A stretch of DNA of 64,000 bases, taken from positions 75,469,565-75,533,564 of the forward strand of contig NC_047118.1 of NCBI RefSeq assembly GCF_902500255.1, in the 5' to 3' direction. Shown piece after piece: positions 23,258 to 51,643 of this stretch. Position numbers and translations under genes: made by a program. The stretch comes from Thalassophryne amazonica. Lineage: Eukaryota. The notes under the pieces are model-generated. The model searched no databases and was not told the DNA's origin. It saw only the letters and a list, made by a program, of their open reading frames with translations. Positions within the stretch are counted from its first letter, which is position 1. The number at the start of each line of letters is the position of its first letter.

Positions 23258-24082
23258 ACGAGGTCTGCGAGAAAAGAAACCGACAGTTTTATTTAAAAAA
23301 AAAAAATATGGATTTGAATCACGTGTGATTACATCAGCCAAGCTTGAACCCTCGTGCGCATGCGTGAGTTTTTTCACGCCTGTCGGTGACGTCATTCGCC
23401 TGTGAGCACGCCTTGTGAAGGAGTGGTCCAGCCCCCTCGTCGGAATTCCTTGTCTGAGAATTGCTGAGAGACTGGCGCTGTGCTTGATCCAAAATTTTTT
23501 CAAAACTGTGAGGCACATCCGAGTGGAGACCATTCGAGAAATTCAGCTGGTTTTCGGTGAAAATTTTAACAGTTGATGAGAGATTTTGGATTGTTTCTAT
23601 CGCTGTAAGGACTTCCCATGGAGCGGGACGTCGCGCAGCGCTCCGAGGCGACGTCGTCATCCTGTTTCAAGCTGAAAACCTCCAAATTTAAGTCTCTGTT
23701 GACCCAGGACGTTGTGAGAGAACAGAGAACTTTCAGAAGAGGTCGAATCAGCAGTTATATCCGGACATTCCACTGTTAAAGGAGATTTTTTTAATGAAAG
23801 ACGTGCGGACGGATTGGCGCGTCGGCTCGCAGCCGGCGCAGCGCGCCCGCCACTGGAAAAACACCTCCGTGTTGATAACCATTTGTAAAATCCAGGTGGC
23901 TTTTGGTGGCTTTCAGTTGAGTGAGTATCTGAGAAAGTGTTTACAGCAGGGCATGTTCCAACTTGTCCTTAAGGCTTCCAACAGAGGTGGTTCAAGCTTG
24001 GCTGATGTAATCACACGTGATTCAAATCCATATGGTTTTTTAAAAAAATAATAAGGTCGGATACTTTTCTCACAGACCTCGT
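23258..24082. mobile_element. Hairpin/foldback element, copy H1 (long terminal inverted repeats acgaggtctg..tatggatttgaatcacgtgtgattacatcag.. ; right arm partly deleted)
   Basis: The left ~530 bp and the right ~200 bp are reverse complements sharing ~90-bp outer terminal inverted repeats. Homologous to 34024-35347 and 50483-51643. Confidence 0.7.
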
Positions 24083-24493
24083 AAATGTATTGATTATTTA
24101 TTTATAATGTCACTCAGTGAAGCTCCGCAACATTAATCAAAAACACACTAACTAGCCAGGTTTGATGGCTTGACAACAAGATAGACTAGTTTGCTTGCTA
24201 AGTACCTTAGTTGATGCCCAAAAATTAAATTACAAATTATTTGAAGTTTGTATTAGTTTGTATTTGCCAGTACAATGTACGTTTGTTTCTGTGAACAGTT
24301 TAGAGTTTATATTGTCAGTCAAATATATATATATATTTGAACACCCTGTGGTTTTGCAAGTTCTCCCACTTAGAAATCATGGAGGAGTCTGAAATTTTCA
24401 TCTTAGGTGCATGTCCACTGTGAGAGACATAATCTAAAAAAAAAAAAAAAAATCCAGAAATCACAATGTATGATTTTATATATATATATATAT

Positions 24494-25626
24494 CAGAGGT
24501 GTCAAAAGTACACACATTTGTTACTTAAGTAGAAGTACAGATACTGCAGTTTAAAAACACTCTGGTAAAAGTTGAAGTATCAACTTGACCTCTTTACTCA
24601 AGTAAAAGTGAAAAAGTATGTGCTGCAAAACCTACTTAAAGTATAAAAGTATAAAGTAACCTTTAAAAAAAAAAAAAAAAAAAAAAAGTAGATGCCACTA
24701 TATGAATTGAAAGCTTAATTTAAAAACTGATTCGTTCTACATGTGGCCCAAGACCCAAAACCCAAAATTACCCCCCAACACCACCTGCATGAAATGTTTC
24801 AATTCTAGAAGCTCTGAAATGCAATCTGGGACTATTCCAGACAATAAACTGCAGTGAGTGCAGCATCCATTTAGTGAGGGAAAAAAAAAAACAACTTTCC
24901 TTATTCAAATTCATTCCAGTAGTATTCTGCTCTTACAAGGACGCAGCAGTTTTCTAGTTTGGCAGATAGTTCTGGAGGAAATAACTAAAGAAATGAACAC
25001 AATGAAAATATGGTTTGACCGAAACAAATTGTCATTAAATAAGACAGGGATGAAGTGGAGGTGTAAAAGTCACTAGGTGTTCACAAGAAACACTTATTTA
25101 TTTATGTATGTATGTATGTATGTATGTATGTATTTATGTATGATCATTAGTTGCTTTTATATTTCCTGTTGTGTTTCTATTCAGGTTCTTTTTGCCTCTT
25201 TCTCTAAAATTGTATATAATAATCATCAGATTATTAATATATAAACAAAAATAAATTTAAGAAATATTACAATTTGAAAACAAATGCACCCGAACGTTAT
25301 GAGAGCTGCAATTGCTTAATGCTAACTTTTAACATTGAAAATGCCATAGACATGCTATCGCGTTAGCGTCGCTCCCGTTTTGAAGTTATAAAATACATCT
25401 ATCAACTGTTTTCAGAAGACCATTTTTAACATAGAAAAGGTAAATAATACTCACAGACGTATGCTCTTTAGGGTTTTAGCGGGGGAAAATTAAGCGAAAG
25501 AAAGAAGGAATAAACGAAGCAATAGGTCGAAGCAGTGCTTCAATCTGCGAACCACTGCTTGGATTGGTTCAAGGTTCAAAGCAAAGCCGTGCTGCAGAAA
25601 AGTTGATTACAGGCGCACATGACGTG

Positions 25627-25670
<44 letters not shown>

Positions 25671-25865
25671 CTGAAGCCAAGAGTAACGAGGCTTTGTTTT
25701 AAAAAATGTAAGGAATAGAAAGTACAGATACTTGTGTGAAAATGTAATAAGTAGAAGTCAGAAGTAGGCAGAAAAATAAGTAAAGGAGTAAAGTATAGAT
25801 ACCTAAAAAGTGTACTTAAGTACAGTAACGAAGTATTTGTACTTCATGTGTTACTAATGTAATCT
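24494..25865 (+). mobile_element. Tol2-like non-autonomous hAT element (3' terminus missing or disrupted)
   Basis: Starts cagaggtgtcaaaagtac. Subterminal tacttaagta / tactcaagta repeats at both ends resemble the Tol2 subterminal repeats. Contains copy 2 of repeat R. Confidence 0.4.
25150..25615 (+). repeat. Unclassified interspersed repeat (family R), copy 2
   Basis: About 90% identical to 2906-3355. Confidence 0.5.
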
Positions 25866-28209: not shown

Positions 28210-28217
28210 GTTCTGAG

Positions 28218-28658: not shown

Positions 28659-28710
<52 letters not shown>
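28659..28710. repeat. (TA)n microsatellite
   Basis: Seen directly. Confidence 0.95.
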
Positions 28711-28715
<5 letters not shown>

Positions 28716-29824
28716 CAAAAATATAAACGCAACACTTTTGGTTTTGCTCCCATTTTGTATGAGATGAACTCAAAGATCTAAAACTTTTTCCACATACACA
28801 ATATCACCATTTCCCTCAAATACTGTTCACAAACCAGTCTAAATCTGTGATTAGTGAGCACTTCTCCTTTGCTGAGATAATCCATCCCATCTCACAGGTG
28901 TGCCATACCAAGATGCTGATTAGACACCATGATTAGTGCACAGGTGTGCCTTAGACTGCCCACAATAAAAGGCCACTCTGAAAGGTGCAGTTTTATCACA
29001 CAGCACAATGCCACAGATGTCGCAAGATTTGAGGGAGCGTGCAATTGGCATGCTGACAGCAGGAATGTCAACCAGAGCTGTTGCTCGTGTATTGAATGTT
29101 CATTTCTCTACCATAAGCCGTCTCCAAAGGCGTTTCAGAGAATTTGGCAGTACATCCAACCAGCCTCACAACCGCAGACCACGTGTAACCACACCAGCCC
29201 AGGACCTCCACATCCAGCATGTTCACCTCCAAGATCGTCTGAGACCAGCCACTCGGACAGCTGCTGAAACAATCGGTTTGCATAACCAAAGAATTTCTGC
29301 ACAAACTGTCAGAAACTGTCTTAGGGAAGCTCATCTGCATGCTCGTCATCCTCATTGGGGTCTTGACCTGACTCCAGTTCGTCATCGTAACTGACTTGAG
29401 TGGGCAAATGCTCACATTCGCTGGCGTTTGGCATGTTGGAGAGGTGTTCTCTTCACGAATGATGCGAAGGAGATGTGTTGCACTGCATGAGGCAAATGGT
29501 GGTCACACCAGATACTGACTGGTATCCCCCCCCAATAAAACAAAACTGCACCTTTCAGAGTGGCCTTTTATTGTGGGCAGTCTAAGGCAGACCTGTGCAC
29601 TAATCATGGTGTCTAATCAGCATCTTGGTATGGCACACCTGTGAGGTGGGATGGATTATCTCAGCAAAGGAGAAGTGCTCACTATCACAGATTTAGACTG
29701 GTTTGTGAACAATATTTGAGGGAAATGGTGATATTGTGTATGTGGAAAAAGTTTTAGATCTTTGAGTTCATCTCATACAAAATGGGAGCAAAACCAAAAG
29801 TGTTGCGTTTATATTTTTGTTGAG
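28711..29824 (+). mobile_element. Internally deleted Tc1-family element with ~300-bp terminal inverted repeats (copy B)
   Basis: 28711-29000 is the reverse complement of 29530-29824. Interior encodes only the transposase N-terminus (ORF 29008-29394: MPQMSQDLRERAIGMLTAGMSTRAVARVLNVHFSTISRLQRRFREFGSTSNQPHNRRPRVTTPAQDLHIQ). Confidence 0.75.
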
Positions 29825-30000
29825 TATATATCTATATCTATATTTATATATATATTTATTTATTTATATTTGACATCACTGACTTAAAATCATGGGAAAA
29901 TAGAAACATTACATCAAATACTAATTTTATTGATACTGAACTGTGGCTCATTGTGATCATACAGAATCCTGTTTGTACCAGGTAATCACAGCAAAGTGCT

Positions 30001-30137: not shown

Positions 30138-31462
30138 CTATAAATGTTAGAGCTGTAGTTTTTGGTGTTTCTGAGATGCTTCTTTCAGGATTTAGTCCAT
30201 TTGAAGAATGTTATCAAAAAGCAACAAAATACAAACAAAAAAAAACATTTATTTCAGAAGAGGGTTTTTTTGTCCAAAAAAGGTGCAAAATATCTAATTA
30301 AAGTAACAGATGTTCTTTAAAGTTTTTGCAGTAATTTTTATTGATGTTCTTTATTTGTTGTGACAAAAATGTTATTTTTCACAAACCAAAGTATCAACAC
30401 AGAATACAAAAGTTGGCAAAAAGCAAAGTTTAAAACAGACGTATAACGTTTGTGGAGAAAAAGTTATTGGTTCATGGTTTGTTTGTTTTTAAATTAGTGC
30501 ATTCATCATTCCTTTTTTAAATTATGTTCCACCTCCTCATGATAAAAACCCCTCTGACCATCTGATGGTGGCGCTGTCAGCAGGGTCAAACACTCTCCAT
30601 CAAACTGATATCAGAAGTTTTTATTCATATTTCAAACTCTGAAATCTTCTGGACGCTGTACTGGACCGTCATGGTGAAGAAGGGGCTGATTTGGAAGGCG
30701 AGGCCCATTAACCAGTCAATTTACGCTCCTGTCCCCACCTGTGGTCATGAGCTTTGGATAATGACTGAAAGCATAAGATCGCAGATACAAGCAGCAAAAA
30801 ATGAAATTCCCACCTCGGGTATCTGGTCTTAAATTCCTGGGCCCATATCCACGAAGCAGCCTAAGGCTAAAAAATAGCTCCTAGTGATGTTATTCTAAGA
30901 AAAATCTTAGAAGTCTTTGAATTCATAGACATTTCTTAGAATTTTCCCAAGATGAGATGAAAGTTGTCCAAGCACCTTAGGCCTTAAGAGAGCTCCTAAA
31001 GTGCCAAACTGGTAAGAAGAGGGAGGAGGACTTTTAGGAAGCCTAGGAGTCTATTAAGCAGAGAAAATGGCAGAAAAGAGAGAGAGGAAGCAGAGATATT
31101 TTCCGTATGTAGGTTGACAGTGAGTCAGTAACATGCTGCCTGCTTGATCTACGTAATTATTTTATGTTAATTTACTGTCTTAATGTATTTCGAAATTGTT
31201 TAGGTTCTTCTCACACACACTGTTTATATTATCACTAATTTATTATTATTATTTTATCATCTGCTTTATTAATATTGTTATTTTCTTTTATTATTACTTC
31301 TATTTTGCCATTTGATTTTAAATGGACCACAATGGAAATAAATCTTGTGTCATGCATGTATTTTTAGCATATTTACAATTATATTATGTACTCAAAATGG
31401 ACATACTAAATAAGCTCACACATGCATACACGCACGCACGCACACTTTTAATACGAGGTCTA

Positions 31463-34020
31463 TTAATCAATCAATCAACTTTTTTTTTATATAGCGCCAA
31501 ATCACAACAAACAGTTGCCCCAAGGCGCTTTATATTGTTAGGCAAGGCCATACAATAATTATGAAAAACCCCAACGGTCAAAACGACCCCCTGTGAGCAA
31601 GCACTTGGCAACAGTGGGAAGGAAAAACTCCCTCTTAACAGGAAGAAACCTCCAGCAGAACCAGGCTCAGGGAGGGGCAGTCTTCTGCTGAGACTGGTTG
31701 GGGCTGAGGGAAAGAACCAGGAAAAGACATGCTGTGGAGGGGGGCAGAGATCGATCACTAATGATTAAATGCGGAGTGATGCATACAGAGCAAAAAGAGA
31801 AAGAAACAGTGCATCATGGGAACCCCCCCACAGTCTACGTCTAAAGCAGCATAACCAAGGGATAGTCCAGGGTCACCCGATCCAGCCCTAACTATAAGCC
31901 TTAGCGAAAAGGAAAGTTTTAAGCCTAATCTTAAAAGTAGAGAGGGTATCTGTCTCCCTGATCTGAATTGGGAGCTGGTTCCACAGGAGAGGAGCCTGAA
32001 AGCTGAAGGCTCTGCCTCCCATTCTACTCTTACAAACCCTAGGAACTACAAGTAAGCCTGCAGTCTGAGAGCGAAGCGCTCTATTAGGGTGATATGGTAC
32101 TACGAGGTCCCTAAGATAAGATGGGACCTGATTATTCAAAACCTTATAAGTAAGAAGAAGAATTTTAAATTCTATTCTAGAATTAACAGGAAGCCAATGA
32201 AGAGAGGCCAACACGGGTGAGATATGCTCTCTCCTGCTAGTCCCCGTCAGTACTCTAGCTGCAGCATTTTGAATTAACTGAAGGCTTTTTAGGGAACTTT
32301 AGGACAACCTGATAATAAAGAATTACAATAGTCCAGCCTAGAGGAAATAAATGCATGAATTAGTTTTTCAGCATCACTCTGAGACAAGACCTTTCTGATT
32401 TTAGAGATATTGCGTAAATGCAAAAAGGCAGTCCTACATATTGTTTAATATGCGCTTTGAATGACATATCCTGATCAAAAATGACTCCAAGATTTCTCAC
32501 AGTATTACTAGAGGTCAGGGAAATGCCATCCAGAGTAAAGATGTGGTTAGACACCATGCTTCTAAGATTTGTGGGGCCAAGTACAATAACTTCAGTTTTA
32601 TCTGAGTTTAAAAGCAGGAAATTAGAGGTCATCCATGTTTTTATGTCTGTAAGACAATCCTGCAGTTTAGCTAATTGGTGTGTGTCCTCTGGCTTCATGG
32701 ATAGATAAAGCTGGGTATCATCTGCGTAACAATGAAAATTCAAGCAATACCGTCTAATAATACTGCCTAAGGGAAGCATGTATAAAGTGAATAAAATTGG
32801 TCCTAGCACAGAACCTTGTGGAACTCCATAATTAACTTTAGTCTGTGAAGAAGATTCCCCATTTACATGAACAAACTGTAATCTATTAGACAAATATGAT
32901 TCAAACCACCGCAGCGCAGTGCCTTTAATACCTATGACATGCTCTAATCTCTGTAATAAAATTTTATGGTCAACAGTATCAAAAGCAGCACTGAGGTCCA
33001 ACAGAACAAGCACAGAGATAAGTCCACTGTCCGAAGCCATAAGAAGATCATTTGTAACCTTCACTAATGCTGTTTCTGTACTATGATGAATTCTAAAACC
33101 TGACTGAAACTCTTCAAATAGACCATTCCTCTGCAGGTGATCAGTTAGCTGTTTTACAACTACCCTCTCAAGAATCTTTGAGAGAAAAGGAAGGTTGGAG
33201 ATTGGCCTATAATTAGCTAAAATAGCTGGGTCAAGTGATGGCTTTTTAAGTAATGGTTTAATTACTGCCACCTTAAAAGCCTGTGGTACATAGCCAACTA
33301 ACAAAGATAAGTTGATCATATTTAAGATTGAAGCATTAAATAATGGTAGGACTTCCTTAAGCAGCCTGGCAGGAATGGGGTCTAATAAACATGTTGATGG
33401 TTTGGATGAAGTAACTAATGAAAATAACTCAGACAGAACAATCGGAGAGAAAGAGTCTAACCAAATACCGGCATCACTGAAAGCAGCCAAAGATAACGAT
33501 ACATCTTTGGGATGGTTATGAGTAATTTTTTCTCTAATAGTCAAAATTTTGTTAGCAAAGAAAGTCATGAAGTCATTACTAGTTAAAGTTAATGGAATAC
33601 TCAGCTCAATAGAGCTCTGACTCTTTGTCAGCCTGGCTACAGTGCTGAAAAGAAACCTGAGGTTGTTCTTATTTTCTTGAATTAGTGATGAGTAGAAAGA
33701 TGTCCTAGCTTTACGGAGGGCTTTTTTATAGAGCAACAAACTCTTTTTCCAGGCTAAGTGAAGATCTTCTAAATTAGTGAGACGCCATTTCCTCTCCAAC
33801 TTACGGGTTATCTGCTTTAAGCTACGAGTTTGTGAGTTATACCACGGAGTCAGACACTTCTGATTTAAAGCTCTCTTTTCAGAGGAGCTACAGCATCCAA
33901 AGTTGTCTTCAATGAGGATGTAAAACTATTGACGAGATACTCTAACTCTCTTACAGAGTTTAGGTAGCTACTCTGCTCTGTGTTGGTATATGACAATAGA
34001 GAACATAAAGAAGGAATCAT
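31463..34020 (-). mobile_element. L2-type LINE (non-LTR retrotransposon), 5'-truncated, with a long RT ORF
   Basis: 479-aa ORF 32360-33799 with RT motifs ([39 protein letters not shown]). C-terminal tail ORF 31888-32214. 3' end has the L2 motif ttgtgatttggcgctatataaa plus a (TTGA)n tail, seen as reverse complement at 31465-31530. Confidence 0.75.
32360..33799 (-). CDS. LINE ORF2 reverse-transcriptase domain (479-aa open frame, the longest TE ORF in the window)
   Basis: RT domains 1-7, see above. The only long uninterrupted ORF in the window apart from L1 ORF2. Confidence 0.7.
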
Positions 34021-34023
34021 TAG

Positions 34024-35347
34024 AAAGTATCCGACCTTATTATTTTTTTCAAAAACCATATGGATTTGAATCACGTGTGATTACATCAGACGTGGGCATG
34101 CGAGAGTTTTTTCACGCCTGTCGGTTACGTCATTCGCCTGTGGGCAGTCTTTGAGTGAGGAGTCGCCCACCCTCTCGTCGATTTTTTCATTGTTTAGGAA
34201 TGGGTCAGAGACTGCTGCTTTGTTTGATCAAAATTTTTTCAAAACTGTAAGGCACAACTGAGTGGACACCATTCAATAAATTCAGCTGGTTTTCAGTAAA
34301 AATTTTAACGGCTGATGAGAGATTTTGGTCTGGTAGTGTCACCGTAAGGATGGCCCATGGCGCCTGACGGCGATCTGAGCTTCGAGGCGGCAGCGTCTCA
34401 CCGTTTCAAGTTGAAAACCTCCACATTTCAGGCTCTGTTGACCCAGTAAGTCGTCAGAGAACAGAGAACTTTCAGAAGAAGTCGGCATGAGGAGTTTATT
34501 CGGACATTCCATTGTTAACGGACATTTTGTAATGAAAGAACGTGCGGGCAGAGTCGCATGTCGGGCCGGACCCGACCGCGGGGGGTCGCGACAGGAAAAA
34601 CACCTCCGTTGGAAACCTTAACGGGCAAGTTGGAACATGCCCAAGCTATTAAACAATTTCTCAGTTACTCACTTGTTGAAAGCCATCAAAAGCCGCCTGA
34701 ATTTTACAAATGGTTTTCAACACGGAGGTGTTTTTCCTGTCGCGGCGCACACAGATTTGCCGAGTCGTCACGGAAACGACTCGGCGAATTTGCGCGCACG
34801 TCTTTCATTACAAAATGTCCTTAAACAGTGGAATGTCCACATAAAGTCCTCATGCCGGCCTCTTCTGAATCTTCTCTGTTCTCTCACGACGTCCTGGGTG
34901 AATTAAGCCTTAAATTAGGATGTTTTCAGGTCGAAACAGGCCGACGACGGCGCCTGGAAGCGCTGCACAACGTCCCACTCCGTGGGAAGTCCTTACACCG
35001 ACAGAAACACCCCATAATCTCTCATCAGCCGTTAAACTTTTCACCGAAAACCAGCTAAATTTCTCAAATAGTGTCCACTCGGATATTCCTCACAGGTCCA
35101 GAAAAAAATTTTGATAAAGCAACGCGCGCCGTCTCGAGCAGCATGTGAAACAAAGGAATTCAGCCGAGAGGGCGGGACCACATCTCACTCAAGGCCTGCC
35201 CACAGGGAAATGACGTCACCGACACGCGTGAAAAAACTCATGCATGCGCACGAGGGTTCAAGCATGATTGGTGTAATCGAACGTCATTCAAATCCATATA
35301 GTTAAAAAAAAAATAAAAGGGTCGGTTTATTATCTAATAGACCACGT
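34024..35347. mobile_element. Hairpin/foldback element, copy H2 (near-complete ~1.3 kb palindrome)
   Basis: Left arm 34024-34640 is the reverse complement of right arm 34700-35347. Same termini family as H1 and H3 (tatggatttgaatcacgtgtgattacatcag). Left outer terminus slightly truncated. Confidence 0.7.
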
Positions 35348-35699
35348 ATATAGATATTCGGCATGTGAATGATGTACGTTCAAACATTTTCAAGCTGTGT
35401 AACAATTCATCTAATTTTGCTGAGTTTCATCATCATAACGTTAAGTTATCCTCGTGATTACACGTCTTCTGGTTATATGATTGGTTGATTTCACTGGCCA
35501 TTCATGCCTAGGAGGGCAGAGCACATTCGTTTTTTATTTCTCCTCCCCTTTCCGTGACAACCAATCACAGCTCTTAGAGGACTGTGTCATAAATAGCAAC
35601 GGGGTCAACCCTGCCTCCTCACAAAGATAGGAGTTTCTGTCCCCTCCTTGCTCAGAGTTGCTCTCAGACACCTCTTGGATCTCTCTTAGGCTAAGATTC

Positions 35700-36039: not shown

Positions 36040-36470
36040 AAAGAATGGGATGAAAACAGGAGAACGTGAACGCCTAACATCAGAACGAAGCAAATGCATG
36101 ACATCAGAATGATGAGAATGGCTGGCATCAAAATAATGTTAACACCTGATATCAGAATGAAGTGAAGGCCTGACATCAGAACAATGTGAACGCCTGACAT
36201 TAGAACAGTGTGTATGCCTGATGTCAGAATAAAGTGAACACCTGATGTCAGAACCAAGTGAATACAAAATGTTAAGACAAAGCCCATGCCTGATGTAAGA
36301 ATGAAGCTAAAGCCTGATCAACACCTAACATGAAAACAAAGTGTTTACTTGACATCAGAACTATGTGAACACCTGAAATCAGAACAAAGCAGATGCCTGA
36401 CGTTGGAACAAAGCAAACACCTGACTTCAGAACAAACCCAATGCCTGATGTCAGAGCAAAGAAATGAATC
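36040..36470. repeat. Minisatellite with a 24-bp unit (cctgacatcagaacaaagtgaacg-like), about 18 copies
   Basis: Visible periodicity. Both-strand ORFs 36033-36570 are periodic translation artefacts. Confidence 0.85.
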
Positions 36471-38859: not shown

Positions 38860-41800
38860 GCCTGGGGGGGCGCTGTTTGACACCATGGAGTGAAGACGTG
38901 CCTCATGAGGCTCCGCAATAATTCCCTTTTCTGCCTTATTTCATTTGTTTTTGGTTATTATTATTCTTTGGTAAATTTCCATATGCTTAACTGTGGAAAA
39001 AAAGTACATATATTTTGTTCCTGCTGGACGGAAGCCTGAGTTCTGCTGGGTCACTGGATGAGTGGACGGAGGTACCTAGTGGATAGCAAAAGGGGGTGTG
39101 CGCGCATCTTGTTTGGGAAGATGCTTCAGCCGTTAGGGGTATGTTTGATTGTTCTTCTTTTGTTCGTTGCACTGTTTAGGCACAGGTTTTGTGGTCTTCA
39201 CATGCTTGCAATGGGTCATTCCTCTTTTTTTTTTATTTACTTTACTTTATTTTATTTATTTATTTATTTTGGTGTTTGTTAATAATGTCACAATCCAATA
39301 AGGGTAATGTACTGAAGGGTCAAATTCTCAAGTTTTGTAGCTGGAATTGTAAAGGATTAAATCAACCTATTAAAAGGAGTAAAGTGCTCCATCATTTACA
39401 GTATTTAGGCGTTCAAATAGCTTTCTTACAGGAAACTCACTTGAAAATTTCAGATCATTCTAGACTTCGGGAGGGCTGGGTGGGTCAGTTGTATCATTCA
39501 ACTTTTCAAAGTAAGGCTCGGGGCGCTGCCATTCTGATTCACAAATCTGTGCCATTTGTTTGTTCTAATGTCATTGCTGATCCTAATGGTAGATACATTA
39601 TTGTTAGTGGAAGTATCTTTGATACAAAATTAATTTTGGCTAATGTGTATGCTCCCAATTGGGATGACTGTAATTTTTTTAGTTCCTTTTTCACAAAAAT
39701 TCCAGATTTATCCTCGCATTTTTTGGTTTTGGGTGGTGATCTCAACTGTTGGTTGAGTCAGCTGGATCGATCATCAAATAATTCTATCAGACAATCACAC
39801 TCTTCCAAAGTTGTAAATAATTTTCTCAAGGAATTCTCAGTTGTTGATGCCTGGCGTTCTCTTAATCCTACTCTGAGAGAATACACTTTTTTCTCCCCAG
39901 TTCATCATACATACACACGTATTGATTACTTTCTCCTGGACAGTCGGCTCATACCTCATATCCGTGCCAGTGCTCATAATGCTATTGTCATTTCAGATCA
40001 TGCCCCAGTGACATTGGACTTGGTAGTGGGCAGTGGCACTTTCTCTTTTGTCCCATGGCGCATGAATGCGCGCCTGTTGTCTGATGATAAGTTTGCTGAC
40101 TTTGTGGTGTCAAAAATTGATCTATTTGTTGCCACAAATGATACACCTGGTGTATCGCCTTCCCTTCTGTGGGAGGCATTTAAGGCTTTTATACGGGGAC
40201 ATATTATTTCCTACAGTAGTTTTGATGTGAAGCAAAGAAAGGCAAAGTTATTAGAACTTACAACTCAAATTCATCAGTTGGATGAATTGTATGCCACCTC
40301 TCCTTTACCCGAAGTATATAATGATAGATTGTGTTTGCAGGCAGAATTTGATCGCTTATCGTCAGTCCAGGCTGAGGAGATGTTGTTGAAGGCACAACAC
40401 GCCCAATACGAGCACGGTGACAAGGCCAGTAAACTCCTCTCTCATCAGCTCCGTAGCGTGTTGACAGCACATCTTATTCCACAGATCCAAACCCCTGGTG
40501 GTGTTTCATCTGACCCTCAAATAATTAACGATCAGTTTCGGAACTTCTATTCATCACTTTATATCTCTGAATGTCCTTTTAGTATTCTGTCTTTGGACTC
40601 ATTCTTTGACAACCTTGTCTGTCCTGTATTGGATAGAGCACAGAGTCTTAAGTTGGAGGAGCCTGTTGGTGTCGGGGAGGTTCTTCGGGCTATTAATAGA
40701 ATGCAGGGTTCTAAATGTCCTGGGCAGGATGGATTTCCTGTTGAATTTTATAGAAAGTTTATTCTTAAATTGGCCCCTCTCCTTTTGAAGATGTTTAATC
40801 ACTCATTTGAATCTGGATCTCTTCCTGCTTCTTTATTACAGGCCTCCATATCCCTAATCCTGAAGAAGGATAAGGACCCGCTGTCCTGTGGCTCCTATCG
40901 CCCGATTTCACTTCTAAATGTAGACTATAAAATTCTTGCAAAAATTTTGGCCCTTCATCTGGAAACCATATTACCATCAGTAATCAGTCCTGACCAGACT
41001 GGATTTATTAAAGGTAGATATGCCTTTTCTAACCTTAGACGCTTGTTTAATATACTTTACAGCCCTACAGACTCTGCTGAAGCCGAATTTGCACTTAGTT
41101 TGGACACTGAGAAGGCGTTTGACAGAGTCGAGTGGGGTTACCTCTTCTATGTGCTTGAACGATTCGGATTTGGTCATAAGTTTGTCTCATGGATAAAGCT
41201 TTTATACACTACCCCACTTGCCTGTGTCAAAACAAATTCTATTTACTCAAAAATTTTTTCCTCTTTTTAGAGGCACTAGACAGGGCTGCCCTATGTCTCC
41301 ATTATGTTTTGCAATCGCCATAGAACCATTGGCTATCTCACTTAGATCTAATCCACATATCATTGGAGTCACGAGACTTGGCCTTGAACAAAAGGTTTCC
41401 CTGTACGCTGACGATTTGCTTTTCTACATTTCAAAACCAGCTTCCTCAATTCCCATTGTTCTCTCAATTCTTGACCAGTTTAGCCGTATTTCTGGCTATA
41501 AATTAAACCTAGGTAAAAGTGAAATTTTTCCCTTGAATTCTGCGGCTCGAAGTTATCCATTGGCTTCCCTTCCGTTTCGGGTTGCACTTGAAGGTTTTAC
41601 ATATTTAGGGGTGAAAGTTAAAAGTAAATTTTGTGAACTGTTCAAGTTTAATTTTGAGCCTCTTGTGGATAGGGTTAGGCAGGATTTAGACAGATGGTCC
41701 TTACTTCATCTATCTGTTGCTGGAAGAATTAATACAGTTAAAATGAAAGTGCTTCCGAAGTTTTCTTTTCTCTTCCAATGTCCTTGTTTATATCCCTGTC

Positions 41801-43613
41801 TCTTTCTTTAGTAAACTGGACCAAATTATTACCAGCAACCATCTAGGATCCGTAAATCGGATCTACAGAGACCAAAAAATGTTGGTGGAATGGCATTACC
41901 AAATTATATGTTTTATTACTGAGCCTCTAATATCCGCATTCTTACATACTGGCTTAAGTCAGATGACTTGGACAACACCCCACCTTGACTCAGCTTGGAA
42001 ACCTCATCGTGTGTGCGATCATCCTTATCAGCTCTGGTTTACGCTCCAAAATCGTTACCAGCCACTGAAATCTCTAATAATAAAATCGTAGGCACAACAT
42101 TGAAGGTTTGGTTTCAGTTTCGGCGCTACTTTAAATTTAACTTCTTTTCTTTGCAATCCCCTATTTTTAAAAACCCTTTATTTCGGCCCTCCCTGATTGA
42201 TTCTGCATTTTCCCTCTGGTCTTCTCTTGGTATTAAATCATTCAATGATCTCTACTTTGAGGGTACTTTCGCATCTTTTGATCGGCTTTCTTTGAAATTT
42301 GATCTCCCAAAAAGTCACTTTTTCCGCTATTTACAAGTTCGAAGCTATGTTAAAGAGAAAACTACTTTGTTTCCATCTAAACCTCCCGCCCAGGATTTTG
42401 AGAATCTTCTGTTGCCTCCCCCACCACGAAAGGGTCTTATATCATGCCTATATGAGAGATTGTGTTCTTTACGTGAATCTCATATTTTAACTATCAAAGC
42501 AGCATGGGTGGATGACTTTGCTATCCAGGATGATTTATGGGAAACAATCCTCCATCGGGTACATGGTTCTTCTCTGTGTGCCAGGCATGGTTTAATTCAA
42601 TGTAAGATAGTGCATCACACTCACTGGACTAAGGCTAGACTCTCTAGGGTATATCCTAATGTTAGTCCAGATTGTGACCGTTGCCACCAAACACCCGCAT
42701 CACTAATCCATATGTTCTGGTCATGTTCATCACTTCAACAATATTGGACCAAAATTTTTGCAACATTGTCAGAAGTTGTCCAGCTGACCATTCAACCTGA
42801 TCCGTTAACAGCACTGTTTGTGGTTTTTCCTGACAGAGTCGCCATACCAAAACTTAAAGCTGATCTTGTCGCATTCCTCACTTTGTTGGCAAGACGTAGG
42901 ATTTTGTTGTGTTGGAAATCAGCCACCTCCATCATTTGGAATTTGGATTAATGACTCTTTATATTTCAGCAAACTCGAAAAAATTAAATTTACCTTATGT
43001 GGATCCACCTCAAAATTTATTAAGATCTGGTAACCTTTTTTTGATCATATTCGGACACTGCAGACCCGGAAGGTACCCACGTAACCGTAAAAGAATTTCA
43101 GCTATATTCACATATTTTATGCTTGACCCTTGTATTATTGTATGATTGCCCTTAATATTATCTGGATTAACTCAACTTTAATTATTTGGTCATATTTACT
43201 TACTGGCCCTTTCATCTCAGAACTTTATCTTTTTGTCTTTGCACAATGAAGACCCCATCTTTTTATTTATTTTTTTTTTCCTTTGTCTCTTTATGTGTAT
43301 ATATATATATATATATATTATTATTATTATTATTATTGCTGTTATTTTTTTACGCTGCCTACATTGCACATCTTAATACTTTTGTTAAGATTGGTCTTCT
43401 TTCTTCAGATTGTACCTTTTGGTAGCTGTTTTTTTTTTTTTTCTCAATATTTTATTACTCAGGTATGATTGTGCTGTGCACTGTAGAAGGATGGTTCCAT
43501 TCTGTTCTTCTGTTCTTTAAAAAAAAAAATGCATATATATTTTGTATATCCGTATTCTGTATTATTGGTGTAAAAATCCAATAAAAAAATATATATATAT
43601 ATATAAAAAAAAA
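38860..43613 (+). mobile_element. L1-type LINE (APE endonuclease, RT, Cys-rich C-terminal domain), 5'-truncated or lacking ORF1, inserted in the Tc1 transposase gene; 15-bp TSD and poly-A tail
   Basis: Direct repeat agaaacgccaccgcc at 38845-38859 and 43614-43628. Poly-A 43605-43613 preceded by (TA)n and (TTA)n. ORF2 runs in three frames (39285-41270, 41218-41811, 41995-42951) with EN motifs (CSWNCKGLN, LQETHL), an L1-like RT (FADDLLFY) and a C-terminal CxxC..H..C domain. Confidence 0.8.
39285..42951 (+). pseudogene. L1 ORF2 (endonuclease-RT), interrupted by two frameshifts
   Basis: ORFs 39189-41270, 41218-41811 and 41995-42951 are collinear with L1 ORF2 domain order. Confidence 0.75.
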
Positions 43614-44543
43614 AGAAACGCCACCGCCTTCTCTGGGTCTGAGCTCATTTGAAATGGACAGATGCAAAGTGGAAAAGTGTGCTGTGGTCTGATGAGTCCA
43701 CATTTCAAACTGTTTTTGGAAATCATGGACGTCGTGTCCTCCGGAAAAAAGAGGAAAAACACCATCCAGATTGTTACCTGTGCAAAGTTCAAAAGCCAGC
43801 ATCTGTGATGGTATGGGGGTGTGTTAGTGCCCATGGCATGGACAACTTACACATCTGTGATGGCACCATCAATGCTGAAAGGTACATCCAGGTTTTGGAG
43901 CAACACATGCTGCCATCCAAGCAACGTCTTTTTCAGGGACGTCCCTGGTTATTTCAGTAAGACAATGCCAAGACACATTCTGCACGTGTTACAACAGCAT
44001 GGCTTCGTAGTAAAAGAGTGCAGGTACTAGACTGGCCTGCCTGCAGTCCAGACCTGTCACCCATTGAAAATGTGTGGCGCATTATGAAATGCAAAATACA
44101 ACAACAGAGACCCCGGACTGTTGAACAACTGAAGTCATACATCAAGCAAGAATGGGAAAGAATTCCACCTACAAAGCTTCAACAATTAGTGTCCTCAGTT
44201 CCCAAACGCTTATTGAGTGTTGTTAGAAGGAAAGGTGATGTAACACAGTGATAAACATACAACTGTCCCAGCTTTTTTGAAACATGTTGCAGGCATCCAT
44301 TTCAAAATGAGCAAATATTTGCACAAAACAAGAAAGTGTATCAGTTTGAACATTAAATATCTTGTCTTTGTGGTGTATTCAACTGAATACAGGTTGAAGA
44401 GGATTTGCAAATCATTGTATTATGTTTCTATTTACATTTTACACAAAGTCCCAACTTCACTGGAATTGGGGTTGTAAGTGTGACTTTCCAAAGCTCAATA
44501 AGTGCATTTCAAGATATTTCAACTTCAGAACCAATTCTGGATT

Positions 44544-47900: not shown

Positions 47901-48659
47901 CTCTTCTTTGTGTTTCATGTTTTTTATTTTTTCCTTGTGTTTATTGCATTTCTGTTGTTCATCACTGTGTCATTTTGTTGGTTCACTGTTTCATGATTTG
48001 GTTTTATTTTTTCCACTTGGGTTGTCTGGTAATTTTTCTTCCCCCACGTGCCTGTCCTGTTCCGTTCACCCATGTCACACCTGTGGTTCATCAGTTCAGT
48101 TTGTTTTTAAGCTCTCACTTTGTCATTGTTCAGTGCCCGTCCCTTGCTCCTCACCACACTATTCATGTACTGTTAGATCACACATTGTATCGAGCTCATC
48201 CACCTTTTCCCTCGCTCCATTTCTCTGCACCAAGTGTCACCTGGTCGTAAGTGCTCCACGCACTGTCAGTGTTTTTTTGACAGCTGTTTTTTGTTGCCAC
48301 ACCATTTGTTAGCCACTCAGCCTTTTGTAGTTTTATTTATTTATTTATTTATTGGTTCTTATCTGGAGTCACATGTATTTTTACAGCCACGTTTGGGACT
48401 ATTAAACACCTAATCCTTTGTTGTCCAGCTGCCTGCATCCTGGGGTCCAACCTTCATGTTCCGTGGTACCAAACTATTACAACAGATGATCCATTTGAGA
48501 TCAGGACTGAAGTGATTTAAAAAACAAATTATTTTGTGCCAAAACAAACTGGAGAACATGAGCTTTGTAAGAGTTCTCTATAATGAGGAAAAGTCTTTTT
48601 TCATCATTATTTCAGTCATCTCGCTCTGTTCTTGTCCAGGTAACGGAGTTGCTCCAGGC

Positions 48660-48932
48660 ATGGCTAACTCCTCTCCAACAGCGCCCTCTGTGTCACCTAA
48701 GCAGCAACACTCCAAACCTGGAGGCAGCGCCAATGGTCAGCCTCGGATAAGTAGCCGGTCTGCATCTTTGGCAGGAAATTCACCTCGACCTTCACTCACA
48801 CGCCAGGCCAGCACCATCACAGAGGGAGCCATAGATGGTTCCAAGCCCAGGGACTACCTAATGTTGGCCATACTGTCGTGTTTCTGCCCGCTATGGCCCA
48901 TCAACATCGTCGCTCTCACCTTCTCCGTCATG
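48660..48932 (+). CDS. Coding exon of a CD225/dispanin-family gene (PRRT2/TRARG1/TMEM233-like): N-terminal Ser/Pro-rich region and first transmembrane helix
   Basis: [91 protein letters not shown]. The [18 protein letters not shown] motif is the CD225 signature. The exon ends ..SVM|gtacca, the same position as the PRRT2 exon boundary (AVM|SRNSLQQ) as I recall it. Confidence 0.65.
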
Positions 48933-49149
48933 GTACCACTTTATTATAAATTAATTAGTAAGATGGAGCAGGTCCAGTCAGACCAAGAGACATTATATTT
49001 CTTAATACAACTACACCACTACTGGTGGACATGGTGGCCACTAGGGCTAGGGCTACTTCCACACAAACTCCTTTCCACAGGTTTATGATCATGTTTGTTT
49101 TAGAATGTAACTGCAGTTAAACAATAGGAAAGCAAAAGTTGTTTTTCTT

Positions 49150-50135
49150 AATTTCTTTTAGTGGGGGTTGGCCTCCACCAGGGCTGCACCTTGTCACCAA
49201 TCCTGTTTGTGATATTCATAGACAGGATATTGAAATGTAGTCAGGGGGAAGACGGTTTCCACTGGGGTGGGCTCAGGGTCATCGCTGCTTTTTTAGATGA
49301 TGTGATCCTGTTGGCTTTATCAGCCGGTGACCTCCAACACTCACTGGATAGGGTCACAGCCAAGTGTGAAGCGGCTGGGATGAGGATCAGCACCTCTAAA
49401 TCTGAGGCCATGGTTCTCAGCAGGAAACCAATGGATTGTCTACTTTTGGTAGGGAATGAGGTCTTGCCCCAGGTGAAGGAGTTCAAGTACCTTGGGGTCT
49501 TGCTCACAAGTGAGGGGACAATGGGGCATGAGATTGGCCGGAGAATTGGCGCAGCAAGGGCGGTGTTGCATTTGCTCTGCTGTATTGTTGTGATGAAAAT
49601 GGAGCTGAGCTAAAAGGCGAAGCTCTCAATTTTCTGGTCAGTCATTGTTCCTACTCTCACCTATGGTCATGAGGGTTGGGTCATGATCGAAAGAGCTAGA
49701 TCAAGTACCCAAAATGGGCTTCCTCAGGAGGGTGGCTGGTGTCTCCCTTAGAGATAGGGTGAGAAGCTCGGTCATCCATGGGGAGCTCAGAGTAGAGCCA
49801 CTGCTCCTTCGCTTTGTAAGGAGCCAGCTGACGTGGTTCGGGCATCTGGTAAGGATGCCCCCTGGGCGCCTCCCTAGGGAGGTGTTCCAGGAACGTCCAA
49901 CCGGGAGAAGGACCCAGGGAAATCCATCTGGGAGGAAACCCCGGGGAAGACCCAGGACTAGGTTGAGAGATTATATCTGCACACTGGCCTGGGAATGCCT
50001 CGGGATCCCCCAGTAAAGGTGGTTAATGTGGCCTGGGAAAGGGAAGTCTGGGGTCCCCTACTGGAGCTGTTGCCCCCGTGACCCGATCCTAGATAAGCGG
50101 TTGAAGATGAGTGAGTGAGTGAAGTTTATTTCTCT
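49150..50135 (+). mobile_element. LINE fragment (RT domains 4-7 plus characteristic C-terminal tail) lying in the dispanin-gene intron in sense orientation
   Basis: ORFs 49161-49613 (GVGLHQGCTLSPILF, AFLDDVILLA) and 49714-50016 (SLRDRVRSSVIHGELRVEPLLLRFVRSQLTWFGHLVRMPPGRLPREVF..RGRPRTRLRDYI). The 3' tail is shared with 35700-36010 and 61850-61990. Confidence 0.65.
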
Positions 50136-50482
50136 GATTTAATACATTGGTGTTTGTAAATGGTCTGTCTATCACTGACAACCACATCTGCACCTAATTT
50201 TCATCATCAATCCAGCAACCACTAAGCACCCAGCAGGTGGCAGACATGTCTAATACTTGAACAAAAGAAAGTTGCCTATTGAATTAATGTGGTGCATCAA
50301 AATTCACCAGATGTGAAAGGAGTTAATCTAATTATATATCCTTTTAATTCGGTGTGTTGTAAGATAAGAGCATTTACTGTTTTTGATTTATGTTAAGTTG
50401 GAGGAGTTGAACAAATTTATCTGTTGACTCACTCCTTTTACAGGCTACTACATACCTGGGCTGTTCCAAAGCCTAGGAGTAA

Positions 50483-51643
50483 ACGAGGTCTGTTAGAAAA
50501 GTATACAACCTTTTTATTTTTTTCAAAAACTATGTGGATTTGAATCATGCGCTTGCATCAGACGAGCTTGAACCTTCGTGCGCATGCGTGAGTTTTTTCA
50601 CGCCTGTCGGTTGCGTCCTTTGCCTGTGGGCAGGCTTTGAGTGAGCACTAGTCCACCCCCCTCGTTGGATTTTTATTGTCAGGGAAATGGCTGAGAGGCT
50701 GCCGCTTTGCTCCATGAAATTTTTTCAGAAACTGTTAGAGACAGCCAGTTGGAAACCATTCGAAGGTTCAGATGGATGTCGGTGAAGATTCTGTCAGCGT
50801 CACACGGATTAAGGACCATTAAAACTGGATTAAAAACGGCCCATGGCGTGCCCCGAGCGGCCATTGACAGGCTGGAACGAGCAGATCACTTCCAAATTTA
50901 AGGCTCTGTTGATGCAGGACGTCGTGTGACTAGCAGAGAAGTTTCATAAGAGGTCGGGATCAGCACATTCCAATGTTAAAGGAGATTTTGTTATGAAAGA
51001 CGTGTGGACGGATTCGCGCGTCGAGACGCAGCCGCTCATGGCGCGGGACAAACAACACCTCCGTGTTGGAAGTCTCCCAGGACATCCTCCGCACGTCTTT
51101 GATTACAAAATCTCCTGTAACAGTGGAATGTGCCACAAAAGTGCTATGTCCAGCTCTGTTGCCATTTCTGTGGTAGTCACACGATGTCCCAGATCAACAC
51201 AGCATTCAATTTAGAAATGATCTGCTCGTTCCAGCCTGTCGTTGGCCGCTCGGTGCGCCGCGTGCCCTCCGCTGCTGTGGGCCGTCTTTAAAAAGGTTTT
51301 AACACTCCTTAATCCGTGTGACCCCGACAGAATCTTCACCGAAATCCATCTGAATCTTTCGAATGGTTTCCAACTGGCTGTCTCTAACAGTTTCTGAAAA
51401 AAATTTCATGGAGCGAAGCGGCAGCCTCTCAGCCATTTCACTGACAATAAAAATCAGACGAGGGGGGTGGGCCAGTGCTCACTCAAAGCCTGCCCACAGG
51501 CGAATGACGCAACTGACAGGCGTGAAAAAACTCACGCATGCGCACGAAGGTTCAAGCTTGTCTGATGCAAGCGCACATGATTCAAATCCATATAGTTTTT
51601 GAAAAAAAATAAAAAGGTCGGATAGTTTTCTAACAGACCTCGT
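50483..51643. mobile_element. Hairpin/foldback element, copy H3 (~1.16 kb near-perfect palindrome) inside the dispanin-gene intron
   Basis: Left arm 50483-51040 is the reverse complement of right arm 51090-51643. Outer termini are nearly identical for >300 bp. Confidence 0.7.

What the first reader, a model, noticed from the sequence alone, without database searches (positions are those of the whole stretch)
23258..51643. Three copies of a 0.8-1.3 kb near-perfect palindromic (hairpin) element within 28 kb
H1 (23258-24082), H2 (34024-35347) and H3 (50483-51643) share termini acgaggtctg..aaaagt..tatggatttgaatcacgtgtgattacatcag..cttgaacc..gcgcatgcgtgagttttttcacgcctgtcgg. In H2 and H3 the left and right halves are reverse complements over ~550 bp, with only a short central spacer, so each copy is one long inverted repeat rather than a MITE with a unique core. 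No transposase or other coding capacity is present; the small ORFs in the arms mirror each other. If transcribed, these loci would fold into ~0.5-kb perfect dsRNA stems, a natural substrate for siRNA or piRNA production. H3 lies inside the intron of the dispanin-family gene. H2 directly abuts the truncated 5' end of the L2 LINE at 34020. The same structure three times in one window is much denser than expected. I could not identify a TSD, so the superfamily is undetermined.
Basis: seen in the sequence. Interest (0 to 1): 0.6.

Follow-up and report, generated by a model that had tools for sequence, protein, structure and literature searches.

The report
Decayed palindromic mariner transposon relics
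The three "hairpin elements" are old, mutated copies of a non-autonomous mariner transposon in a toadfish genome, each built from two inverted copies of the transposon's 5' end; this is an ordinary kind of fish repeat, and the evidence here does not point to a dedicated small-RNA locus.

Summary
The repeat family is real, but it is less perfect than described and it can be classified. The window comes from the toadfish Thalassophryne amazonica. H2 and H3 are long inverted repeats. Their arms are only about 74% (H2) and 82-85% (H3) identical, and the copies are 68-80% identical to each other. H1 keeps one arm, the centre and only 92 bp of the other arm.

The ends are TA|CGAGGTCTG...CAGACCTCG|TA, so the target duplication is TA at 5 of 6 ends. 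This points to the mariner family of the Tc1/mariner superfamily.

Each arm is collinear with the 5' end of intact mariners: terminal repeat, about 200 bp of leader, the ATG and roughly 120 decayed codons of the Mos1-type HTH domain. A lineage HMM scores 58.7 bits (E 2e-17), and DNA identity to a metagenome mariner 5' end is 68-70%. The natural 3' end of related elements looks different. Each element is therefore a head-to-head 5'/5' duplication.

The LINE next to H2 is inserted inside H2, whose real left tip is at 31454-31465. H3 lies in an intron of TRARG1.

Small-RNA production, genome-wide copy number and the autonomous partner could not be tested. The element is ordinary: a new member of a known kind.

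The parts
23257..23258 (.). TA target-site duplication, left of H1
   Evidence: TACGAGGTCTG read directly
23259..23880 (+). H1 long arm: mariner 5' terminal repeat, about 200-bp leader, and decayed transposase N-terminal codons (start codon mutated to ATT at 23460)
   Evidence: Aligned with the other arms and with mariner 5' ends L004 and L005. Lineage HMM hit at 23346-23624, 21 bits, E 6e-6. tblastn E 5e-5.
23881..23972 (+). H1 unique centre (loop), same sequence as the H2 centre in reverse orientation
   Evidence: H1 1-735 aligns with H2 35347-34598 at 79.7%; alignment. Origin unresolved.
23973..23989 (-). 17-nt stub of the inner end of H1's second arm
   Evidence: GGCTTCCAACAGAGGTG is the reverse complement of the inner end of the long arm. 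It shows H1 descends from a full palindrome by deletion of roughly 500 bp.
23990..24081 (-). Last 92 nt of H1's second arm (terminal repeat and start of the leader)
   Evidence: 87% complementary to 23258-23350
24082..24083 (.). TA target-site duplication, right of H1
31452..31453 (.). TA target-site duplication, left of H2
   Evidence: AATACGAGGTCTATTA
31454..31465 (+). True left tip of H2 (CGAGGTCTATTA), split from the rest by a LINE insertion
31466..34018 (-). 5'-truncated LINE nested in H2. Its 3' tail (TGAT repeats) is at 31466-31478. An ATTA duplication flanks it at 31462-31465 and 34019-34022.
   Evidence: Sequence read. RT ORF at 32360-33799, RVT_1 E 2.6e-37.
34019..34617 (+). H2 left arm (rest of the terminal repeat, leader, decayed N-terminal codons from ATG 34200)
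   Evidence: Weak collinear HMM and tblastn hits.
34618..34711 (+). H2 unique centre, 94 nt
34712..35346 (-). H2 right arm, the inverted copy of the same 5' segment
   Evidence: 71.5-74% identical to the left arm
35347..35348 (.). TA target-site duplication, right of H2
   Evidence: GACCACGTATA
50482..50483 (.). Left flank of H3: AA where TA is expected (degenerate TSD)
50484..51008 (+). H3 left arm: terminal repeat, leader, ATG at 50687, decayed N-terminal codons
   Evidence: 70.4% identical to mariner 5' end L004 over 362 nt. Nt 1-163 are 76-78% identical to metagenome mariner 5' ends. HMM and tblastn hits.
51009..51087 (+). H3 asymmetric centre (79 nt), which continues the left-arm sequence
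   Evidence: Homologous to the inner arm part of H1 and H2. LEVSQDIL resembles VEVSQDML of relatives, a weak match.
51088..51642 (-). H3 right arm. It is the best-preserved transposase remnant: ATG at 51434-51436, ORF MAERLPLRSMKFFSETVRDSQLETIRKIQMDFGEDSVGVTRIKEC.
   Evidence: Lineage HMM hit at 51278-51550, 58.7 bits, E 1.9e-17. phmmer hits 52-60% identical to mariner N-termini. tblastn E 4e-14.
51643..51644 (.). TA target-site duplication, right of H3

Best explanation
H1, H2 and H3 are three independent, old insertions of one non-autonomous mariner-derived family in the toadfish Thalassophryne amazonica.

Structure. The ancestral element was a palindrome of about 1.3 kb made of two inverted copies of the 5' end of a mariner. 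Each copy holds a terminal inverted repeat of about 30 bp, a 5' leader of about 200 bp, and roughly the first 120 codons of the transposase (the Mos1-type HTH DNA-binding region). A unique centre of about 80-95 bp joins the two copies. The element has lost the catalytic domain and the natural 3' end.

Mobility (inferred). Both ends carry the same transposase-binding terminal repeat. A related autonomous mariner could therefore cut and paste the element in trans, duplicating a TA at each insertion.

Origin (inferred). The palindrome most likely arose by fold-back or template switching while the gap left by an excised element was being repaired. The resulting 5'/5' element then amplified and split into at least two subfamilies, A (H1, H2) and B (H3). 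In each subfamily both arms carried the same changes at the time of insertion.

Later history (shown). After insertion the arms decayed independently. H1 lost most of one arm and H2 received a LINE insertion.

Present effect (inferred). The copies are most likely neutral relics. H3 sits in a TRARG1 intron and would be transcribed as an imperfect long hairpin. In a vertebrate such a hairpin is more likely an ADAR editing substrate than an siRNA source.
For: Host. The TRARG1 exons are 100% identical to the T. amazonica protein.

Family and palindrome.

TA TSD and mariner-type tip. The tip reads TA|CGAGGTCTGTTAGAAAAGTATCCGACC. Its 21-nt core is identical to the ends of at least 120 metagenome contigs. 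These include 5' ends followed by an intact mariner N-terminal ORF (L004, L031, L045) and 3' ends preceded by a transposase C-terminus...PYSPDMAPCDFWLF...NYFEGD* (L026, L096). Rhodnius mariner ends also begin TACGAGG (PMC4678618).

The arms are a 5' end.
- A profile of the five conceptual arm translations hits proteins carrying PF17906 (HTH_48) at E 1e-6 against 5.8e9 sequences.
- A lineage HMM built from 120 such proteins hits raw reading frames of the arms: 58.7 bits (E 2e-17) for the H3 right arm and 21 bits for H1, with collinear weaker hits in the other arms.
- phmmer of the H3 ORF finds 52-60% identical mariner N-termini. tblastn gives a collinear series of matches through both HTH motifs.
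- The DNA alignment is collinear from the terminal repeat through the ATG into the coding sequence. H3 arms are 68.5% identical to L004.

The natural element has short terminal repeats and a different 3' end. The 5' and 3' ends of relatives share only about 24-28 nt.

H1 derives from a full palindrome. It keeps a 17-nt stub of the second arm.

Subfamilies with concerted arms. At 43 of 518 sites both H3 arms differ from all three A arms. Outgroup L004 agrees with H3 at 28 of the 40 such sites it covers. The A arms also share in-frame TGATGA stops.

Independent insertions. The flanks are not shared.

Nested LINE with ATTA duplication.
Against: - Pfam itself does not recognise the conceptual arm translations. 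The homology rests on a lineage-specific HMM, phmmer and DNA alignment.
- No autonomous partner, no other copy and no genome-wide count could be obtained from the fish. Mobility in trans and the family's size are therefore inferred.
- The nearest intact relatives come from metagenome contigs that are probably insect (termite) host DNA, not from a fish.
- The origin of the unique centre is unresolved.
- Three copies cannot distinguish concerted evolution of the arms from two separate palindrome-forming events. The inner boundary of H3 differs from that of H1 and H2.
- Transversions outnumber transitions in arm comparisons, which is odd for neutral vertebrate decay and may reflect alignment noise.
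Confidence: 0.85

Rival explanations
1. The elements are, or were, functional hairpin-RNA loci. Transcription from the leader promoters or from the host gene yields a long hairpin covering the transposase leader and N-terminus. The hairpin is processed into siRNAs or piRNAs that silence the autonomous mariner. This would be a mobile analogue of maize Mu killer.
For: - The architecture is the same as Mu killer: two copies of one terminal repeat plus an inverted duplication of the 5' part of the transposase gene (PMC3440606).
- Predicted hairpins are strong, with helices up to 70 bp in H3.
- The leader keeps conserved GC-rich motifs in all arms (GCGCATGCG, TGACGTCA, CACGTG), so each arm could carry an inward-facing promoter. 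This last point is inference.
Against: - The arms have decayed to 74-85% identity with no sign of compensatory maintenance after insertion. Private changes per arm number 15-43 of 518 sites.
- H1 lost an arm and H2 is broken by a LINE.
- There is no Rfam match.
- In fish, transcribed palindromic repeats are documented mainly as ADAR editing substrates (PMC8096273).
- No small-RNA data were available.
Confidence: 0.1
2. The arms are the natural long terminal inverted repeats of a fish mariner (as in long-ITR elements such as Mcmar1 or Tc3). The copies are then simple internal-deletion derivatives rather than 5'/5' duplications.
For: - Long-ITR Tc1/mariner elements exist (Mcmar1, cited in papers listed; also own knowledge).
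- A related 891-bp element, L005, has inverted repeats of 160-190 bp.
Against: - The arms contain the start codon and about 120 transposase codons in both orientations. A natural 3' end cannot hold these and also encode the C-terminus.
- In relatives with the same terminal repeat, the 3' end carries the transposase C-terminus up to about 80 nt from the tip and shares only about 24-28 nt with the 5' end.
- L005 itself lacks the C-terminal 100 codons and so looks like another derivative.
Confidence: 0.04
3. The structures are local rearrangements. They could be segmental duplications, or chance head-to-head insertions of separate 5' fragments, rather than a mobile palindromic family.
For: All three copies lie within 28 kb and no other copy could be examined.
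Against: - The same arm-centre-arm layout is seen three times with different flanks and individual TA flanks.
- The copies are 68-80% identical and fall into two subfamilies.
- The H1 and H2 centres are homologous.
Confidence: 0.02

Closest known systems
Mariner-like elements (Tc1/mariner superfamily) and their internally deleted non-autonomous derivatives, for example the 800-900-bp shortened Rpmar lineages of Rhodnius (PMC4678618)
   Same: TA duplication, a TACGAGG-type tip, Mos1-type HTH_48 N-terminal remnant, loss of the catalytic domain, and a size of about 0.8-1.3 kb.
   Different: The 3' end is not the natural one. It is replaced by an inverted copy of the 5' 600 bp, so the whole element is one palindrome.
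Maize Mu killer (PMC3440606)
   Same: Two copies of the same terminal repeat plus an inverted duplication of the 5' part of the transposase gene. It is predicted to give a long hairpin RNA that matches the autonomous element's mRNA.
   Different: Mu killer is a single locus of the Mutator superfamily in a plant, with demonstrated siRNA silencing. Here a multi-copy family with TA flanks is seen in a fish, it belongs to mariner, and no silencing has been shown.
Palindromic fish repeats such as zebrafish ANGEL (PMC8096273), and human MADE1, the source of mir-548 (PMC1784062)
   Same: Non-autonomous DNA-transposon derivatives that fold back on themselves when transcribed. MADE1 is also mariner-derived.
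   Different: Those are short (80-350 bp) and lack coding remnants. These are 1.2-1.3 kb and each arm holds the leader plus about 120 transposase codons.
Foldback elements (Drosophila FB, Galileo)
   Same: Very long inverted terminal arms with a short centre.
   Different: FB and Galileo arms are built of internal tandem subrepeats, make 7-9-bp duplications and belong to other superfamilies (own knowledge, not tested here). Here there are no tandem subrepeats and the TSD is TA.

Membership tests
mariner family, Tc1/mariner superfamily (as a non-autonomous derivative) | TA target-site duplication | tested here: met
   TA at both ends of H1 and H2 and at the right end of H3. The left end of H3 has AA.
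mariner family, Tc1/mariner superfamily (as a non-autonomous derivative) | Mariner-type terminal inverted repeat shared with elements that encode a mariner transposase | tested here: met
   The 21-nt core CTGTKAGAAAAGTATCCGACC is identical in L004, L026, L096 and at least 120 metagenome contigs that hold mariner N- or C-terminal ORFs next to it. Rhodnius mariner ends also begin TACGAGG.
mariner family, Tc1/mariner superfamily (as a non-autonomous derivative) | Transposase with Mos1-type N-terminal HTH (Pfam HTH_48) | tested here: met
   Only a decayed remnant is present. Lineage HMM 58.7 bits, E 2e-17. The profile hits PF17906 proteins. phmmer gives 52-60% identity. Caveat: a direct Pfam scan of the arm translations was negative.
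mariner family, Tc1/mariner superfamily (as a non-autonomous derivative) | DD34D catalytic domain | tested here: not met
   No catalytic-domain remnant is detectable in H1-H3. The HMM and tblastn hits stop near codon 120-140 and Pfam is negative on the centre. The element is therefore non-autonomous. Relatives L026 and L096 carry the PYSPDMAP...NYFEGD C-terminus.
MITE | Small size (under about 800 bp), no coding remnant, short terminal repeats | tested here: not met
   Length is 1.16-1.34 kb (H1 is 0.82 kb after a deletion). The arms carry transposase codons and the whole element is an inverted repeat.
MITE | High copy number with homogeneous copies | not testable with these tools
   No fish genome could be searched. 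The three copies here are 68-80% identical.
Foldback (FB/Galileo-type) elements | Long arms composed of internal tandem subrepeats | tested here: not met
   Tandem Repeats Finder finds only trivial arrays of 15-28 bp.
Mu killer-like silencing hairpin | Inverted duplication of one terminal repeat plus the 5' part of the transposase gene | tested here: met
   definition from PMC3440606
Mu killer-like silencing hairpin | Transcribed hairpin processed into small RNAs that silence the autonomous element | not testable with these tools
   No expression or small-RNA data. Only a fold prediction is available.
Known structured RNA or miRNA family | Match to an Rfam covariance model | tested here: not met
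   No match at gathering thresholds anywhere in the window.

The most novel reading that the evidence does not exclude
This may be a mobile 'transposon killer'. The palindromic 5'/5' mariner derivative would spread using the autonomous element's transposase. Every transcribed copy would yield a hairpin covering the transposase leader and N-terminus, feeding siRNA or piRNA silencing of its own helper. The same 5'-end inverted duplication may have arisen more than once: in fish subfamilies A and B, and in the termite-type element L005. That would suggest this mariner lineage is prone to making such self-limiting derivatives.
Probability: 0.08. Interest if true: 0.6.

Novelty: new member of a known kind. 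Interest (0 to 1): 0.25.

Why it matters
The practical value is in annotation.
- An element listed as unclassifiable can be assigned to mariner.
- Its true boundaries are now known. H2 extends to 31454 and contains a nested LINE.
- Its 'small mirrored ORFs' are explained as transposase relics.

The work also gives a clean example of a 5'/5' head-to-head mariner derivative. Both arms carried the same subfamily-specific changes at insertion. Transposon biologists could use this to study how palindromic non-autonomous elements arise and stay symmetric, for example by fold-back repair or arm-to-arm conversion.

If the family is abundant in toadfish introns, it would be a sizeable source of long intramolecular dsRNA. 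Such RNA could be an ADAR or innate-immunity substrate. None of this is unexpected for a fish genome rich in Tc1/mariner.

Tried and rejected
- Direct Pfam scans of the stitched or raw arm translations and of the centre gave nothing relevant. The only hit was a chance GLF match at E 0.2.
- Rfam at gathering thresholds found no match in the window.
- A metagenome scan for the conserved leader motif ATGCRWGAGTTTTTTCACGCSTGTCRGT gave 0 hits.
- L001-L003, the first relatives fetched, show no palindrome of this kind.
- L007 carries the terminal-repeat core but no mariner ORF of 60 aa or more and no matching inverted repeat.
- I considered 'flip-flop' inversion of the centre between H1 and H2 and rejected it. 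H1 simply lies in the opposite orientation and aligns end to end with the reverse complement of H2's right arm plus centre.
- The origin of the unique centre remains unresolved. There are three weak leads. One is a 47-nt similarity to arm positions 257-302, where 0 to 3 of 200 shuffles reached the observed score in several comparisons. The second is a short LEVSQDIL/VEVSQDML match in H3. The third is a visual PKLL/PEF resemblance to downstream transposase codons. None is decisive.
- A literature search for T. amazonica transposons found only hAT-6_XT horizontal transfer and general repeat statistics, nothing on this family.
- The ORF-based routes to other fish copies returned no other toadfish sequences, so copy number could not be estimated.

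Full report
**Observation.**
Repeat finding, self-alignment and BLASTN confirm three related elements at about 23.26-24.08 kb, 34.02-35.35 kb and 50.48-51.64 kb. No other copy is in the 64-kb window. The quoted terminal and subterminal sequence is shared and is far beyond chance: the 31-nt motif has 3 matches against 0 in shuffles, and the 22-nt tip has 4 against 0.

H2 and H3 are long inverted repeats, but not near-perfect ones. Left and right arms are 71.5-74% identical in H2 and 81.6-85% in H3. H1 matches itself over only 94 bp.

As RNA, the elements would fold as follows (mononucleotide shuffles give -241, -372 and -348 kcal/mol for H1, H2 and H3):

| Element | MFE (kcal/mol) | Pairs in fold-back register | Longest uninterrupted helices (bp) |
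|---|---|---|---|
| H3 | -874 | 509 | 70, 42, 39 |
| H2 | -696 | 444 | 25, 21, 20 |
| H1 | -344 | 124 | 45 |

These are strong but imperfect hairpins.

**Host and context.**
The exon pair at 48657-48932 and 52154-52279 encodes a peptide 100% identical to 'trafficking regulator of GLUT4 1' of Thalassophryne amazonica, a member of the CD225/dispanin family PF04505. Toadfish genomes are 2.15-2.45 Gb, and Tc1/mariner makes up 9.9% of the Opsanus beta genome (PMC11409776).

**Ends and target duplication.**
All intact ends read TA|CGAGGTCTG...CAGACCTCG|TA. H1 has TA on both sides. H3 has TA on the right and AA on the left.

These are found 2.55 kb upstream at 31452-31465 (TA CGAGGTCTATTA). They are followed directly by the (TGAT)n-type 3' tail of a minus-strand LINE, whose RT ORF lies at 32360-33799 (RVT_1, E 2.6e-37). 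The LINE's truncated 5' end meets the rest of H2 at 34019. The tetranucleotide ATTA is present on both sides, at 31462-31465 and 34019-34022. The LINE is therefore nested in H2 and H2 is complete, with TA on both sides. A TA duplication points to Tc1/mariner. Published Rhodnius mariner ends also begin TACGAGG (PMC4678618).

**What the arms are made of.**
About 205 bp in from each tip there is an ATG (ATT in H1). It is followed by a frame-shifted, stop-ridden reading frame that mirrors in the other arm. Pfam does not recognise the conceptual translations. Four other lines of evidence do:
- A profile of the five arm translations finds two proteins carrying PF17906 (HTH_48, the Mos1 transposase HTH) at E 1e-6 and 1e-5 against 5.8 billion sequences.
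- Their relatives number 388 proteins, named 'Mos1 transposase HTH domain-containing', 'GVQW3-like' and 'FLJ37770' in termites, ticks, crustaceans and a horseshoe crab. An HMM built from the best 120 hits the raw reading frames of the window only inside H1-H3. The H3 right arm (51278-51550) scores 58.7 bits, E 1.9e-17. H1 (23346-23624) scores 21 bits, E 6e-6. Weaker collinear hits fall in H2 and the H3 left arm.
- phmmer of the intact 45-codon ORF in the H3 right arm, run against 1.8 billion representatives, returns 7 hits. Six of them are mariner N-termini that are 52-60% identical, of the type MTERLEQRYCIKFCQKLGDSQVETIRKIQ...; the seventh is an unrelated repeat protein.
- tblastn gives a collinear chain through both HTH motifs, up to the ...MRRV(S/A)AK region near codon 120.

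**DNA-level proof that each arm is a mariner 5' end.**
Contig L004 carries an intact N-terminal ORF of this type. It is 70% identical to the H3 arms over 350-450 nt. In the multiple alignment the H3 arms are 68.5% identical to L004 and the H1 and H2 arms 53-55%. The alignment runs without rearrangement from the terminal repeat (CTGTTAGAAAAGTATCCGACC) through the leader and the ATG into the coding sequence.

A metagenome scan for that 21-nt core returned at least 120 contigs, mostly contig ends, which is typical of a high-copy host repeat. Nucleotides 1-163 of H3 are 76-78% identical to these 5' ends. The samples are probably termite gut metagenomes with host DNA. This is my inference from the Cryptotermes proteins and was not verified.

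Two contigs, L026 and L096, show the natural 3' end. The transposase C-terminus (...PYSPDMAPCDFWLF...NYFEGD*) stops about 80 nt from a tip reading TA CGTGGTCTGTTAGAAAAGTATCCGACC. The 5' and 3' ends share only about 24-28 nt. The natural element therefore has short terminal repeats, whereas the fish elements carry the 5' end on both sides. Each is a head-to-head inverted duplication of about 590 bp of 5' sequence around a unique centre of 80-95 nt, with the catalytic domain and natural 3' end missing.

**History of the three copies.**
H1 aligns end to end with the reverse complement of H2's right arm plus centre, at 79.7% over 755 nt. It still has a 17-nt stub of the inner end of the second arm (23973-23989) before jumping to that arm's last 92 nt. 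H1 is therefore a deletion derivative of a full palindrome.

Site patterns were counted over 518 columns that are ungapped in all five arms:
- Both H3 arms differ together from H1 and both H2 arms at 43 sites.
- Both H2 arms differ together from the rest at only 7 sites.
- Private changes per arm number 15-43.

With L004 as outgroup, it agrees with H3 at 28 of 40 informative split sites and with H1/H2 at 5. The three A arms also share the same in-frame TGATGA stops. So there are two subfamilies, A (H1, H2) and B (H3), and in each the two arms were alike at insertion.

Two readings fit this, and three copies cannot separate them, because the inner boundary of H3 differs from that of H1 and H2:
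- The arms of the master copies were kept alike, by arm-to-arm conversion or by fold-back regeneration during repair.
- Palindromes formed separately in two sublineages.

A related 891-bp element in L005 has its 3' end replaced by an inverted copy of the 5' 160-190 bp. This hints that the rearrangement recurs in this mariner lineage.

Arm-to-arm K2P distances are 0.166 for H3 and 0.327 for H2, and 0.33-0.45 between subfamilies. These indicate old insertions, and none of the copies can be active now. I estimate tens of millions of years, but this is a rough inference and no calibration was done.

**Mechanism.**
- Shown: the structure, the TA flanks, the homology to mariner 5' ends, the nested LINE, the deletion in H1, and the subfamily pattern.
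- Inferred: mobilisation in trans by an autonomous mariner that recognises the shared terminal repeat.
- Inferred: origin by fold-back or template switching during gap repair after excision. Abortive gap repair is the accepted route to deleted DNA-transposon derivatives (own knowledge).
- Inferred: no present function.

The architecture equals that of maize Mu killer, which has two copies of one terminal repeat plus an inverted duplication of the 5' part of the transposase gene and gives a hairpin that is a source of silencing siRNA (PMC3440606). Against it, the arms have decayed without any sign of maintenance, one copy lost an arm, another is interrupted, and Rfam finds nothing. In zebrafish, transcribed palindromic repeats such as ANGEL are documented as heavily A-to-I edited dsRNA. 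That paper also notes that many fish repeats are approximate palindromes (PMC8096273).

**Comparison and novelty.**
The elements meet the mariner criteria that a non-autonomous derivative can meet: TA duplication, the terminal repeat and an HTH_48 remnant. As expected, they lack the DD34D domain. They are not MITEs, because they are too long and carry coding remnants. They are not Foldback or Galileo-type elements either, because they have no tandem subrepeats and the TSD is TA. They work like other palindromic non-autonomous DNA transposons, such as ANGEL, MADE1 (PMC1784062) and Mu killer in layout.

I found no paper describing this particular family. Repbase, Dfam and FishTEDB could not be queried. 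I rate it a new member of a known kind, with low to moderate interest.

**Not testable here.**
Genome-wide copy number could not be measured, so I cannot say whether three copies in 28 kb is unusual. The existence of an autonomous partner in toadfish, transcription, small RNAs and editing also could not be tested.

Noticed in passing
window 28666-29869: A young 1.2-kb Tc1-like element. Its 329-bp inverted arms (28666-28994 and 29542-29869) are 96-99% complementary. They flank a 128-aa ORF (29008-29394) with Tc1/Sleeping Beauty-type HTH domains and no catalytic domain. It is another N-terminus-only non-autonomous derivative and is much younger than H1-H3.
   Followed up: partly
window 11903-12322 (+) and 29068-29415 (-): Two near-identical ORFs (MSICPLKSVT...) lie antisense to the Tc1-type N-terminal ORF. 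This suggests a second copy of that Tc1-like family near 12 kb.
   Followed up: no
window 38216-38434 and 44180-44397: An inverted-repeat pair about 220 bp long (two contiguous pieces, 91-92% complementary) brackets a LINE with endonuclease and RT ORFs at 39189-42951. It may be a long-TIR DNA transposon interrupted by a LINE.
   Followed up: no
window 36045-36485: A minisatellite with a 24-bp period.
   Followed up: no
window 56867-57717: A tandem repeat of about 66 bp produces repeated ORFs (QNQLYHSAKSTLSQCKINSITV...).
   Followed up: no
L005 321-1211: An 891-bp mariner derivative from a metagenome contig, probably insect host DNA. It has the 5' repeat, leader and about 130 N-terminal codons, then a C-terminal fragment (PYSPDMAPCEY...), then an inverted copy of the 5' 160-190 bp in place of the natural 3' end. 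This is the same kind of 5'-end inverted duplication as in the fish family, on a smaller scale.
   Followed up: partly
L006-L125 (JGI metagenome contigs): The 21-nt terminal-repeat core of the fish family is identical in at least 120 metagenome contigs, mostly at contig ends. The first 163 nt of H3, which are non-coding, are 76-78% identical to them. Non-coding similarity this high between a fish and probable insect DNA suggests the lineage has moved horizontally.
   Followed up: partly
proteins P0002-P0120: All of the 120 best relatives of the mariner N-terminal region are shorter than 200 aa. They are annotated GVQW3-like or FLJ37770 in ticks, crustaceans, a horseshoe crab and termites. N-terminus-only ORFs of this mariner lineage therefore seem very common.
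   Followed up: no
arms of H1-H3 (alignment A1): Transversions outnumber transitions in every arm-to-arm comparison, for example 46 against 31 between the H3 arms. This is unexpected for neutral decay in a vertebrate. It may be alignment noise and remains unexplained.
   Followed up: no
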